The translations under genes and the position numbers were made by a program. This document shows, piece by piece, positions 13,896 to 15,948 of a DNA stretch of 64,000 nucleotides. Numbering within the stretch: position 1 is the stretch's first letter; each line of letters opens with the position of its first letter. Under the pieces are notes generated by a model. The model made no database searches. It saw only the letters and a program-made list of their open reading frames with translations, and had not been told where the DNA came from. The stretch lies in contig CAZDHW010000009.1 of the NCBI GenBank assembly GCA_964505415.1, positions 1,102 through 65,101 on the forward strand, given 5' to 3'. Source of the DNA: an uncultured bacterium. Lineage in GTDB: Bacteria > Hydrothermota > Tepidihabitantia > Tepidihabitantales > DTDR01.

Positions 13896-14942
13896 ATGAA
13901 TAAAGAAATAAGAAATCTGTTAGACACTATCCTTTGTCCGGGTTGAGCTTCAAAATTTAATCAGACGCAGTTAGCGTCGGTTTTGAGCAAATTGCCCCGG
14001 ATAAAGGATAAAAGAATACTTGTTGGTTTTAATACCGCCGACGATGCCGGTGTTTTTCAAATTAGTAAAAATAAGGCAATTGTTCAAACGGTGGATGTCT
14101 TTGCTCCGACTATTGATGACCCCTATCTTTTTGGCGAGATTGCGGCTTGTAATTCTTTAAGTGACATTTATGCTATGGGTGGTAAACCTTTATTAGCAAT
14201 GAATGTTGTTGGTTTTCACCCGAAATATCCCTTAGATTGGTTTAGTAAAATGCTTTTGGGCGCTTTTAAAAAGACAAAAGAAGCAAAGACCTTTATTGTC
14301 GGCGGTCATACTTTTGTTTCCGAACAGGTAATGTTCGGTTTAGCGGTAACTGGTTTTATCAATCCTAAAAAGATTATCACTAATGCTAAAGCGCGTCCAA
14401 ATGATTATTTGGTTTTAACTAAACCATTAGGGGTAGAAATCTTTTCTTATGCCCTATTAAAAAAGCTTGATATTCCTAATAAATTATATAAAGAAGCAGT
14501 GAAGTCAATGACCACCCTCAATGATAAGGCATCAGCAATAATGGTAAAGATTGGCGTTAATGCTGCTACCGATATTACCGGTTTTGGTTTGATTGGTCAT
14601 TTAGCAGAAATGATCAGTGCCAGTAAAGTGGGAGCAGAAATTTACGCTTCTTCTTTACCAGTTTTACCAGAAGTTCTTTCTTTGATTAAAAATGGGGTGA
14701 TTGGTGCCGGTTACGGAATGAATTACGCATCTTTTGCTAATCAGGTAATTTTTGAAAAAGATGTTAGTGAAGAATATCAGATATTAGTATTTAGTTCGGA
14801 AACTTCTGGTGGGCTTTTAATCTCTGTACCCGAAAAAAAATTGGCAAAATTACAAAAAGAATTAAAAAGGAATAGAATTATTAGTAAAGTAATCGGTAGA
14901 ATTGTTAAAGACCATCCTGCTACTATTATTGTTAGAAAGTAG
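13896..14942 (+). CDS. selD: Selenide, water dikinase (selenophosphate synthetase) SelD, selenocysteine-containing (UGA at codon 17)
   Basis: ORF track starts at internal TTG 13983. Reading upstream in frame gives ATG 13896 and MNKEIRNLLDTILCPG-U-ASK with TGA at 13944-13946. This aligns with E. coli MSENSIRLTQYSHGAG-C17-GCK. Downstream DDAGV, NSLSDIYAMGGKP and GGHT motifs confirm SelD. Confidence 0.8.
13947..13988 (+). promoter_or_regulatory. Putative bacterial SECIS hairpin immediately 3' of the selD UGA
   Basis: Outer stem GC(T)TCAAAA / TTTTGAGC. Inner stem GACGC / GCGTC with apical loop AGTTA at 13969-13973. Begins at +1 after the UGA, the expected bacterial SECIS position. Confidence 0.45.
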
Positions 14943-15948
14943 TTTAAAAGAGGCTTTATTTTATAAAAAATTAGAAAATAACCAGGTTCAGTGTCAATTA
15001 TGTTTTCGGCAATGTGTTATTTTAGAAAATAAAAGGGGATTTTGCCGGGTAAGGGAAAATAGAAAAGGAAAACTTTATAGTTTAGTTTATAACCATCCGC
15101 AAGCAATCCAAATCGACCCCATTGAAAAAGAACCGTTGTACCATTTTCTTCCCGGGACCGAAATCTTGGGCATCGGTACTGTTGGTTGTAATTTTGTTTG
15201 CCACCATTGCCATAATTGGCATCTTTCCCAAGCAACTTTTAAAAAAGAAGAGAGCTATTTCATCACGCCCAAAGAGATTATTGAAATGGCAAAAAGAAAA
15301 AATATAAAAACTATCTCTTTTACTTATAACGAACCAACAGTTTTTTATGAATATATTTTAGCTATTGCCCAAGAGGCCAAAAAGAATAATATCAATATTA
15401 TCTGGCATTCTAACGGTGCTATCAATCAAGAACCCCTTTTAGCCCTTTTAGAATATACCGATGGCGTAACAATTGATTTCAAAGGTATTACTAACGAAAT
15501 CTTAGCCAAAATGTCGCAGGCGAAAGTTGATAATACTTTAAAAACTTTAAAAACCATTAAGGAAAAGGGAAAATGGTTAGAAATTGTTAATCTTATTATT
15601 CCGACAATAAATGATAGTGAAGAAGATATAAGAAAATTATGTTTATGGATAAAAGAAAATTTAGGAACTGACATCCCTCTCCACTTTACCCGCTATTTTC
15701 CTAATTATAAATTAACCATACCTCCAACCCCCATTTCCACTTTAGAAAAAGCCTATAAGATTGCTAAGGAGGTGGGCTTGAAATATGTTTATCTTGGTAA
15801 TGTTCCTGGTCATAAATATAATTCCACTTATTGCCCCAAATGTAACAAAAGATTAATCCAGAGATTCCATTTTACTATTTTAGAAAACAAGATTAAAAAT
15901 GGTAAATGTCCTTTCTGCCAAGAAAAAATTCCTGGTAGATGGCAATAA
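14929..15948 (+). CDS. AmmeMemoRadiSam-system-type radical SAM enzyme, copy 2 (paralog of 3251-4276)
   Basis: CQLCFRQC...[14 protein letters not shown], radical SAM [11 protein letters not shown]. C-terminal third is nearly identical to copy 1 ([24 protein letters not shown]). ORF track start is TTG 14902; TTG 14929 gives an N-terminus matching copy 1. Either start overlaps the selD end. Confidence 0.7.
   Translation: [339 protein letters not shown]

What the first reader, a model, noticed from the sequence alone, without database searches (positions are those of the whole stretch)
14902..15948. Second AmmeMemoRadiSam paralog with a C-terminal third nearly identical to copy 1 at nucleotide level (partial gene conversion?)
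Copy 2 sits 11 kb away, downstream of selD. It is about 50% identical to copy 1 over the N-terminal two-thirds but about 75-80% identical over the last 110 residues. A 24-aa run ([24 protein letters not shown]) is identical, and the underlying DNA (about 15740-15810 vs about 4065-4135) differs at only a handful of positions. This gradient is not expected from uniform divergence. It suggests recent gene conversion or recombination between the 3' ends, or strong constraint on a shared C-terminal partner-binding module. Both copies overlap their upstream gene (selD end for copy 2), so their starts are uncertain: the ORF-track start 14902 or TTG 14929.
Basis: seen in the sequence. Interest (0 to 1): 0.6.

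Follow-up and report, generated by a model that had tools for sequence, protein, structure and literature searches.

The report
Diverged radical-SAM paralogs sharing conserved core
The second radical-SAM gene is an old, functionally separate paralog of the first, and their identical 24-residue stretch is the most conserved part of the family's catalytic barrel, kept by purifying selection rather than by a recent gene conversion, so the finding is ordinary.

Summary
Both genes, copy 1 (3215-4276) and copy 2 (14902-15948), are real TIGR04337 "AmmeMemoRadiSam" radical SAM enzymes in a candidate division WOR-3 genome. The identity gradient is real: 49% amino-acid identity over residues 20-240, 83% over 241-305 and 58% in the tail. 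The 24-residue identical run exists, at 4049-4120 and 15721-15792.

The gradient is purely non-synonymous. The fraction of synonymous sites that differ is flat along the gene (0.61-0.67), and 11 of the 24 run codons differ, all at third positions. A recent conversion of the 3' third is therefore not supported.

The two copies belong to two widespread subfamilies:
- **Diagnostic residues.** 38 lie in the first two-thirds, one in the core and five in the tail.
- **The core.** It is the last strand-helix-strand of a barrel like that of pyruvate formate-lyase activating enzyme. It is near-invariant across the family.

Each copy has its own conserved neighbour. Copy 1 sits next to a DUF362/4Fe-4S protein. 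Copy 2 sits next to a roughly 725-aa membrane protein resembling spermidine synthase. No AMMECR1 or Memo gene was found among the window ORFs scanned.

One weak residue remains. Within about 90 nt of the block, same-genome paralog pairs are slightly more alike at silent sites than cross-genome pairs (p about 0.006-0.02). This is driven mainly by a relative (L007) with a 45-nt identical run. It hints at occasional short-tract conversion but does not establish it for this window.

The parts
3215..4276 (+). Copy 1: subfamily-A member of TIGR04337 (AmmeMemoRadiSam-type radical SAM enzyme), 353 aa. CX3CX2C motif at 3512-3535, N-terminal 4-Cys motif at 3317-3370, C-terminal CxxC...CxxC at 4160-4246.
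   Evidence: NCBIfam 370 bits vs cutoff 220. Orthologs at 85-96% in L005, L006, L007, L085 and L165. A-type residue at 37 of 44 diagnostic sites. Motif coordinates.
14902..15948 (+). Copy 2: subfamily-B member of TIGR04337, 348 aa. CX3CX2C motif at 15187-15210, N-terminal 4-Cys motif at 14992-15045, C-terminal CxxC...CxxC at 15832-15918. The TTG start overlaps the selD 3' end by 41 nt.
   Evidence: NCBIfam 330 bits vs cutoff 220. Orthologs at 83-93%, then a drop to 67% or less in other lineages. B-type residue at 34 of 44 diagnostic sites. Start supported by L007.
4001..4141 (+). Family-invariant block in copy 1 ([38 protein letters not shown]). The identical 24-aa run is at 4049-4120.
   Evidence: For the wider core (codons 241-305) pN is 0.10, for the run 0.018, while pS stays at 0.61-0.65.
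15676..15813 (+). The same block in copy 2. The identical 24-aa run is at 15721-15792. In the model it is strand (LHFTR), loop, helix ([14 protein letters not shown]), strand (YVYL).
   Evidence: Best fold match is PFL-activating enzyme 3C8F, TM 0.78 normalised to the target.
4273..5325 (+). DUF362 plus two-[4Fe-4S] ferredoxin-like protein (resembles the EFR1 family). Its ATGA start overlaps the copy 1 stop. It is the conserved neighbour of A-type copies.
   Evidence: The pair is conserved in L005-L011 and L165.
15939..18119 (+). 726-aa membrane protein with a central domain resembling spermidine synthase and hydrophobic clusters at both ends. Its start overlaps the copy 2 stop by 10 nt. It is the conserved neighbour of B-type copies.
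   Evidence: Pfam PF01564 and NF037959. Full-length homologs at 36-39% follow B-type genes in L170, L171 and L172.
13896..14942 (+). selD, encoding a selenoprotein. ATG at 13896, in-frame TGA (Sec17) at 13944-13946 in CPG-U-ASK. It lies upstream of copy 2, which overlaps its 3' end.
   Evidence: TIGR00476 302 bits, with the profile match starting at position 32 for the ORF as listed. Read-through translation. selD is absent between DsbD_2 and copy 2 in L007.

Best explanation
Copy 2 is an ancient, functionally distinct paralog of copy 1. It is not a recent duplicate and not a recently converted gene. Both are radical SAM enzymes of the TIGR04337 family, related to pyruvate formate-lyase activating enzyme, but they belong to two widespread subfamilies. 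Subfamily A (copy 1) is paired with a DUF362/ferredoxin-like gene. Subfamily B (copy 2) is paired with, and probably translationally coupled to, a membrane protein resembling spermidine synthase. The subfamily-specific residues lie in the first two-thirds of the protein, around the cluster loop and the strands inferred to face the substrate. The last strand-helix-strand of the barrel (copy-1 residues about 255-305) is nearly invariant across the whole family. Purifying selection on that block is extreme (dN/dS 0.01-0.09, against 0.28 elsewhere). Synonymous sites are saturated everywhere. Together these facts produce the identity gradient and the 24-residue identical run. Shown here: the gradient, the saturation, the subfamily structure, the fold and the conserved neighbours. 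Inferred: that the block is constrained because it belongs to the SAM-binding catalytic core, and that the two copies act on different substrates or with different partners.
For: - **Synonymous sites are flat along the gene.** pS is 0.65 / 0.61 / 0.65 / 0.67 for N-terminal part / core / run / tail, against pN of 0.33 / 0.10 / 0.018 / 0.30.
- **The run differs only at silent sites.** All 11 run differences are at third positions. Same-codon use in the run is 12/23, against 10.2 expected from codon usage. Same-codon use in the C-terminal third vs the N-terminal part gives p=0.65.
- **The run is close to the family consensus.** The consensus is PpTPi.TLE.A..IA..vGL.[10 protein letters not shown]. 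Unrelated members P0006, P0007 and P0060 match 20-21 of the 24 residues.
- **Subfamily differences avoid the core.** Of 44 diagnostic sites, 38 are in residues 20-240, 1 in 241-305 and 5 in the tail. Copy 1 is A-type and copy 2 is B-type throughout, including the tail.
- **Copy 2 is not closest to copy 1.** Its nearest non-clade homologs (63-67%) are closer than copy 1 (57%).
- **The block is part of the barrel.** The model has pLDDT 94 and the block is a beta-alpha-beta unit. PFL-activating enzyme is the best fold match.
- **The neighbours differ and are conserved**.
- **Independent assemblies reproduce both copies**.
Against: - The core identity between the two copies is higher than for typical A-B pairs. 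Copy 1 ranks 1st of 93 A-type proteins for core identity to copy 2 (z=3.3, or 3.5 after regression on amino-acid composition). There is no such excess in the N-terminal part or the tail.
- Same-genome paralog pairs are slightly more alike at the nucleotide level in codons 278-306 than cross-genome pairs (p=0.006; exact run p=0.011; third positions p=0.018).
- Close orthologs show raised silent divergence in the run: pS about 0.70, against 0.29-0.43 in the N-terminal part.
- These points leave room for occasional short-tract conversion on top of constraint.
Confidence: 0.8

Rival explanations
1. Recurrent short-tract gene conversion of tens of nucleotides between the two paralogs, confined to the most conserved block. 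That block is the only stretch similar enough to pair. Such conversion would help keep the block identical within a genome, on top of purifying selection.
For: - **Same-genome pairs stand out in the block.** In the double-centred c1 x c2 nucleotide-identity matrix for codons 278-306, the same-genome pairs W-W and L007-L007 rank 2nd and 1st of 42-49 pairs. Permutation p=0.004-0.006. Nothing is seen in the rest of the gene (p=0.32) or in the tail (p=0.88-0.99).
- **L007 shows a candidate tract.** Its c1 and c2 share a 45-nt identical run (codons 291-306), the longest of the 49 c1 x c2 pairs compared. pS in the run is 0.28 against 0.68 in the N-terminal part. The same codon is used in 18/22 cases (p=0.02 vs the rest of the gene). 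The pair is also top in a GENECONV-like fragment test.
- **Triplet scans agree on the region.** The best cluster of sites where a copy sides with its same-genome paralog against its own ortholog falls at residues 281-308 only for same-genome triplets (p=0.02-0.25). Cross-genome controls give p=0.6-0.97 and clusters elsewhere.
Against: - For the window pair itself the signal is only about 3-4 nucleotides.
- Its longest identical run is 17 nt, while cross-genome pairs reach 17-29 nt.
- Its rank in the fragment test is 7-18 of 42.
- It shares no strictly unique nucleotide state inside the block.
- pS in its run is saturated at 0.65.
- The third same-genome pair (SKYB26: L006 + L166) shows nothing.
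- Only three same-genome pairs were available, and the region boundaries were partly chosen after seeing the data.
Confidence: 0.3
2. Recent gene conversion or recombination replaced the whole 3' third of one copy with the other's sequence.
For: Amino-acid identity rises from 0.49 to 0.72 in the last third, and a 24-aa run is identical.
Against: - Synonymous divergence is as saturated in the C-terminal third as elsewhere.
- 11 of the 24 run codons differ.
- The tail 306-353 is only 58% identical and is B-type in copy 2 ([8 protein letters not shown], R.HF).
- Cross-genome paralog pairs show the same gradient.
Confidence: 0.03
3. Assembly artefact: a collapsed or chimeric contig creates the similarity between the two loci.
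For: None found. Read mapping could not be done with these tools.
Against: - The copies differ at 39% of nucleotides in the N-terminal part and at 15-20% even in the block. They are not collapsed repeats.
- Orthologs of both copies, with the same neighbours, occur in independent assemblies. L007 carries both on one contig. Others are L001-L005, L085 and L165-L168.
Confidence: 0.01
4. Within-organism co-adaptation: both paralogs dock the same partner through the block (for example a shared reductant or maturation factor). The variable positions of the block are then driven to the same residues in this lineage without any DNA exchange.
For: There is an excess of core amino-acid identity between the two copies beyond the family and composition expectation (z=3.3-3.5 and 1.8-2.1). 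In triplets with copy-1 orthologs, sites where copy 1 sides with copy 2 outnumber the reverse by 137:34 in the core, against 176:124 in the N-terminal part.
Against: - In the model the block is a buried-type beta-alpha-beta of the barrel, not a separate module.
- The effect is a few residues, and the triplet comparisons are not independent.
- Core identity to copy 2 correlates strongly with FYMINK content (r=0.83), so shared AT-driven composition explains part of it.
- Co-adaptation would not explain the silent-site signal in L007.
Confidence: 0.1

Closest known systems
TIGR04337 'AmmeMemoRadiSam system radical SAM enzyme' (NCBIfam hypothetical equivalog)
   Same: Both copies score above the curated cutoff over the full profile length. 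Both have the CX3CX2C cluster motif, the N-terminal 4-Cys motif and the C-terminal CxxC...CxxC pair that are invariant in the family alignment.
   Different: No AMMECR1 or Memo gene lies next to either copy or was found among the window ORFs scanned. Each copy has a different conserved neighbour. The family splits here into two subfamilies with 44 diagnostic positions. No function for the family was found in the searchable literature. The Memo-AMMECR1 system is only cited as 'recently described' in PMC7159879.
Pyruvate formate-lyase activating enzyme (PflA; PDB 3C8F, 3CB8, 8FO0)
   Same: It is the best sequence and fold match among solved structures. Profile E=2e-14 over the radical SAM core. 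Foldseek E=2e-14, TM 0.78 normalised to the 245-residue target. By inference, the conserved block corresponds to the last beta/alpha units of that partial barrel.
   Different: Sequence identity is only 17-20%. The window proteins add an N-terminal 4-Cys domain, a short hydrophobic N-terminus and a C-terminal zinc-ribbon-like hairpin. They score far below the PFLA cutoff (75 and 63 bits vs 232). No glycyl-radical enzyme gene is adjacent.
Concerted evolution of bacterial paralogs by gene conversion (for example tufA/tufB; from general knowledge, not tested here)
   Same: Two paralogs lie in one genome about 12 kb apart in the same orientation. One highly similar segment could serve as a recombination substrate. 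Relative L007 shows a 45-nt identical tract with locally low dS.
   Different: In classic cases the whole genes stay nearly identical at silent sites. Here silent sites are saturated along the whole gene in the window pair. Any conversion would be limited to tens of nucleotides.
NF037959 'fused MFS/spermidine synthase' and PRK03612-type long polyamine aminopropyltransferase-like membrane proteins (neighbour of copy 2)
   Same: The 726-aa neighbour reaches the NF037959 cutoff (42.5 vs 40 bits). It has a central PF01564 domain flanked by hydrophobic clusters.
   Different: It scores well below the PRK03612 equivalog cutoff (98 vs 472 bits). I found no description of its conserved pairing with a B-type TIGR04337 enzyme, but my literature searches did not target that pairing.

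Membership tests
TIGR04337 (AmmeMemoSam_rS) protein family | Full-length HMM score above the curated cutoff (220 bits) | tested here: met
   Copy 1: 370 bits, profile positions 2-334 of 349. Copy 2: 329.9 bits, positions 3-333 of 349.
TIGR04337 (AmmeMemoSam_rS) protein family | Radical SAM CX3CX2C motif, plus the family-invariant N-terminal Cys cluster and the C-terminal CxxC...CxxC | tested here: met
   CNQRCKYC / [16 protein letters not shown]..C / [13 protein letters not shown]..CKFC / CPKC..CPFC. These Cys columns are invariant in 50 sequences.
AmmeMemoRadiSam three-gene system | Genomic association with an AMMECR1 (PF01871) homolog and a Memo (PF01875) homolog | tested here: not met
   No PF01871 or PF01875 hit in any window ORF scanned. 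The precomputed Pfam annotation of the syntenic relatives L001 and L165 shows none either. Presence elsewhere in the genome cannot be tested from a 64-kb window.
Glycyl-radical enzyme activases (PFLA, TIGR02493) | Score above the equivalog cutoff and an adjacent glycyl-radical enzyme | tested here: not met
   75 and 63 bits against a cutoff of 231.75. No glycyl-radical enzyme is among the neighbours. The fold is nevertheless closest to PFL-activating enzyme.
Gene-conversion tract between paralogs | Local drop of synonymous divergence between the paralogs within the tract | tested here: not met
   Window pair: pS is 0.61-0.67 in every region and 0.65 in the run. Same-codon use shows no local excess. 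The feature is met only in relative L007 (pS 0.28 in the run).
Gene-conversion tract between paralogs | Same-genome paralogs more alike than cross-genome paralogs in the tract (concerted evolution) | tested here: inconclusive
   Codons 278-306 give p=0.004-0.006, and the exact run gives p=0.011-0.018, with three same-genome pairs. However, the window pair is unremarkable in the fragment test and in the unique-shared-state test.
Gene-conversion tract between paralogs | Phylogenetic incongruence: the tract of one copy nests within the other copy's clade | tested here: inconclusive
   Only 1 of the 44 subfamily-diagnostic sites lies in the core, so the test has no power there. The N-terminal part and the tail are congruent: copy 1 is A-type and copy 2 is B-type.

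The most novel reading that the evidence does not exclude
A roughly 70-90 bp segment encoding the last strand-helix-strand of the catalytic barrel acts as a micro-conversion hot spot between two otherwise saturated, functionally diverged radical SAM paralogs. Copy 2 would also belong to an undescribed two-gene cassette (B-type TIGR04337 enzyme plus a membrane protein resembling spermidine synthase) that works without AMMECR1 or Memo.
Probability: 0.25. Interest if true: 0.4.

Novelty: new member of a known kind. Interest (0 to 1): 0.2.

Why it matters
As posed, the finding has little consequence. It shows that an identity gradient between paralogs, including a perfectly identical 24-residue run, can be produced by selection alone. 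It also shows that silent sites must be checked before gene conversion is invoked.

Two side products may be useful:
- The family annotated as 'AmmeMemoRadiSam' contains at least two subfamilies with different conserved partners. One partner is a DUF362/ferredoxin-like protein. The other is a membrane protein resembling spermidine synthase. Neither subfamily is linked to AMMECR1 or Memo here, so the family name may mislead functional inference.
- The block offers a small test case for conversion limited by the minimum length of identity needed for recombination.

Tried and rejected
- **Distribution of C-terminal identity among all homolog pairs with similar N-terminal identity.** The window pair looked like a 0.03-0.2% outlier. 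I discount this because the 240 homologs were selected as best hits to the two copies, which centres the sample on them. My single-column Q/H subfamily split was also poor.
- **Strict 'unique shared nucleotide state' count for same-genome pairs.** No excess was found, but there were too few sites for any power.
- **Triplet max-subarray scans.** Individually non-significant for the window (p=0.09-0.25).
- **Getting the copy-1 ortholog from the 129-kb contig that carries L001.** This was not possible.
- **Literature on the function of the system.** Only incidental mentions were found. The Burroughs et al. 2019 paper is not held.
- **tRNA and Rfam scans of the window.** Nothing was found.
- **Last line.** It used a mistyped contingency table and is not cited.
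Full report
**What is there**

The window (about 31% GC) carries two ORFs on the + strand: copy 1 at 3215-4276 (353 aa) and copy 2 at 14902-15948 (348 aa).
- Both match NCBIfam TIGR04337, 'AmmeMemoRadiSam system radical SAM enzyme', over the full profile. Scores are 370 and 330 bits against a cutoff of 220. All other radical SAM models score far below their cutoffs.
- Named homologs place the organism in candidate division WOR-3.

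**Checking the observation**

- BLASTP gives 57% identity over 332 residues.
- On a codon-aware alignment, amino-acid identity is 0.49 for copy-1 residues 20-240 and 0.72 for 241-353.
- The last third is not uniform. The core 241-305 is at 0.83 and the tail 306-353 at 0.58.
- The non-uniformity is significant (Fisher p=1.4e-6 for core vs N-terminal part).
- The 24-residue run [24 protein letters not shown] is identical.
- The underlying DNA differs at 11 of 72 positions, all of them third codon positions.

**Is it gene conversion?**

The decisive quantity is silent-site divergence. For the window pair it gives no support to conversion.
- The Nei-Gojobori fraction of synonymous sites that differ (pS) is flat along the gene: 0.65 in the N-terminal part, 0.61 in the core, 0.65 in the run and 0.67 in the tail. 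In sliding windows it ranges from 0.51 to 0.84.
- The non-synonymous fraction (pN) falls from 0.33 to 0.10 to 0.018 and rises again to 0.30 in the tail.
- Among identical residues, the same codon is used in 61/106 cases in the N-terminal part, 49/80 in the C-terminal third and 12/23 in the run. Codon usage predicts 52, 39 and 10. There is no local excess (p=0.65).
- Cross-genome paralog pairs, such as window copy 1 against copy 2 of relatives, show the same gradient.

A recent conversion or recombination of the 3' third is therefore not supported. The gradient is entirely a matter of amino-acid constraint.

**Why the block is so conserved**

I aligned 240 homologs.
- The run is close to the family consensus, PpTPi.TLE.A..IA..vGL.[10 protein letters not shown]. 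Members outside the copy-2 clade (for example P0006, P0007, P0060) carry 20-21 of the 24 residues.
- The family splits into two subfamilies:
  - **Type A** (copy 1 and most WOR-3 sequences) has CPR.C, CNQRCKYCQNW, CVVTGGYIN and ENTYCP.
  - **Type B** (copy 2 and sequences from other lineages, some named Latescibacterota, Omnitrophica or Endomicrobia) has CFR.C, [18 protein letters not shown].N and KYNSTYCP.
- Of 44 positions diagnostic for A versus B, 38 lie in residues 20-240, one in 241-305 and five in the tail. Copy 1 is A-type and copy 2 is B-type throughout.
- Copy 2's nearest homologs outside its own small clade (63-67%) are closer to it than copy 1 is (57%). The duplication is old, or copy 2 was acquired.
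- An AlphaFold model of copy 2 has mean pLDDT 94. It shows the block as strand (LHFTR), loop, helix ([14 protein letters not shown]), strand (YVYL), followed by a zinc-ribbon-like hairpin.
- The best solved-structure match is pyruvate formate-lyase activating enzyme. Foldseek gives E=2e-14 and TM 0.78 on the target. The sequence profile gives E=2e-14.
- I infer that the block is the last beta/alpha unit of the radical SAM barrel, not a separate partner-binding module.

**Different partners**

- **Copy 1.** It is followed, with an ATGA overlap, by a DUF362 plus two-[4Fe-4S] protein. This pair is conserved in L005-L011 and L165.
- **Copy 2.** It is followed, with a 10-nt overlap, by a 726-aa protein with a central domain resembling spermidine synthase and hydrophobic clusters at both ends.
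  - Full-length homologs at 36-39% follow B-type genes in three distant lineages, L170, L171 and L172.
  - Two other B-type loci, L169 and L173, lack this neighbour.
- **selD.** The adjacency with copy 2 holds in L001-L004, L166 and L168, and selD is present at the cut end of L005. It is absent in L007. It is probably incidental.
- **AMMECR1 and Memo.** No homolog was found among the window ORFs scanned.

**A residual signal**

Three observations leave room for occasional short-tract conversion inside the block.
- **Protein level.** Copy 1 ranks first of 93 A-type proteins for core identity to copy 2 (z=3.3, or 3.5 after regressing on composition). There is no excess in the N-terminal part or the tail.
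- **Nucleotide level.** I used three same-genome pairs: the window, L007, and SKYB26 (L006 + L166).
  - In a double-centred matrix of c1 x c2 nucleotide identity, the window and L007 pairs rank 2nd and 1st for codons 278-306 (permutation p=0.004-0.006).
  - The exact run gives p=0.011, and third positions alone give p=0.018.
  - The rest of the gene shows nothing.
- **Relative L007.** Its two copies share a 45-nt identical run, the longest of all pairs. pS in the run is 0.28, and the pair is top in a GENECONV-like fragment test.

For the window pair itself the evidence is thin.
- The excess is about 3-4 nucleotides.
- The longest identical run is 17 nt, which is no longer than in cross-genome pairs.
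- The fragment-test rank is 7-18 of 42.
- There is no uniquely shared state in the block.
- The third same-genome pair (SKYB26) shows nothing.

I rate short-tract conversion as plausible in the lineage (about 0.3) but not established.

**Artefact**

Read mapping was not possible. However, the copies differ at 15-39% of nucleotides depending on the region. Both copies, with the same neighbours, recur in independent assemblies, including both on one contig in L007.

**Verdict**

The 'constraint' reading is right and the 'recent conversion' reading is wrong for this window. This is a second, B-subfamily member of a known radical SAM family: ordinary, of low interest, with a minor hint of micro-conversion and a possibly undescribed conserved partner.

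Noticed in passing
13860-13946 (+): selD encodes a selenoprotein. ATG is at 13896 and an in-frame TGA at 13944-13946 (codon 17, CPG-U-ASK); from general knowledge this matches the position of the catalytic Cys/Sec in SelD. The ORF list therefore starts too late, at 13983. A perfect sigma-70 consensus promoter (TTGACA at 13860, 17-nt spacer, TATAAT at 13883) ends 7 nt before the ATG, which suggests a leaderless or near-leaderless mRNA. A hairpin follows the TGA (-15.1 kcal/mol, z=-1.3, not significant on its own) and could be the SECIS element.
   Followed up: partly
57254-58621 (-): SelA (L-seryl-tRNA(Sec) selenium transferase; PF03841, E=1.5e-144) is in the same window. The organism therefore has at least two of the selenocysteine-pathway genes, selA and selD. 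No tRNA, including tRNA-Sec, was found in the window.
   Followed up: partly
14902-18119 (+); L170 6001-9456, L171 5001-8581, L172 5001-8305: A conserved two-gene cassette. A B-subfamily TIGR04337 radical SAM gene is followed immediately by a 725-785-aa membrane protein with a central domain resembling spermidine synthase. It was found in four distant lineages (36-39% full-length identity). A DsbD_2 membrane protein lies nearby in the window and in L171. I found no description of this pairing, but my literature searches did not target it.
   Followed up: partly
3215-5325 (+); L005-L011, L165: The A-subfamily radical SAM gene is consistently followed by a DUF362 plus two-[4Fe-4S] protein resembling the EFR1 family, with an ATGA overlap in the window. 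This protein could be a dedicated electron donor or a maturation partner.
   Followed up: partly
3215-3262 and 14902-14943 (+): Both copies, and most homologs, begin with a short hydrophobic stretch (MLSYLILIGFLM.. and (M)LKTILLLLLLE..). This is unusual for a cytoplasmic radical SAM enzyme and might be a membrane anchor. It is conserved in L007, where no upstream gene overlaps.
   Followed up: partly
L019, L021, L022, L027, L031-L035, L038, L039: In loci retrieved through NadA, several of them from Aminicenantes MAGs, a radical SAM gene 41-50% identical to copy 1 lies 1-5 kb downstream of nadA. In the window, copy 1 lies 2.5 kb upstream of nadA. This may be a recurrent linkage or a coincidence.
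   Followed up: no
4049-4120 vs L165; 15721-15792 vs L001: Between close orthologs, silent divergence is higher in the run (pS about 0.70) than in the N-terminal part (0.29-0.43). For copy 2 vs L001 the whole C-terminal third is raised (pS 0.56-0.60). This could reflect imported paralog sequence, recombination between strains, or noise from only 24 codons.
   Followed up: partly
L007 16463-18453: Relative L007 has DsbD_2 followed directly by copy 2, with no selD between them. It has its own TTGACA/TATA-like promoter right before a GTG start. The selD-copy 2 adjacency is therefore not fixed even among close relatives.
   Followed up: partly
homolog search for copy 1 vs L005, L007, L085: The protein search for copy 1 jumped from 96% to 74% identity. 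Orthologs at 85-88% exist in public genomes and metagenomes, so the word-indexed search is not exhaustive for close relatives.
   Followed up: no
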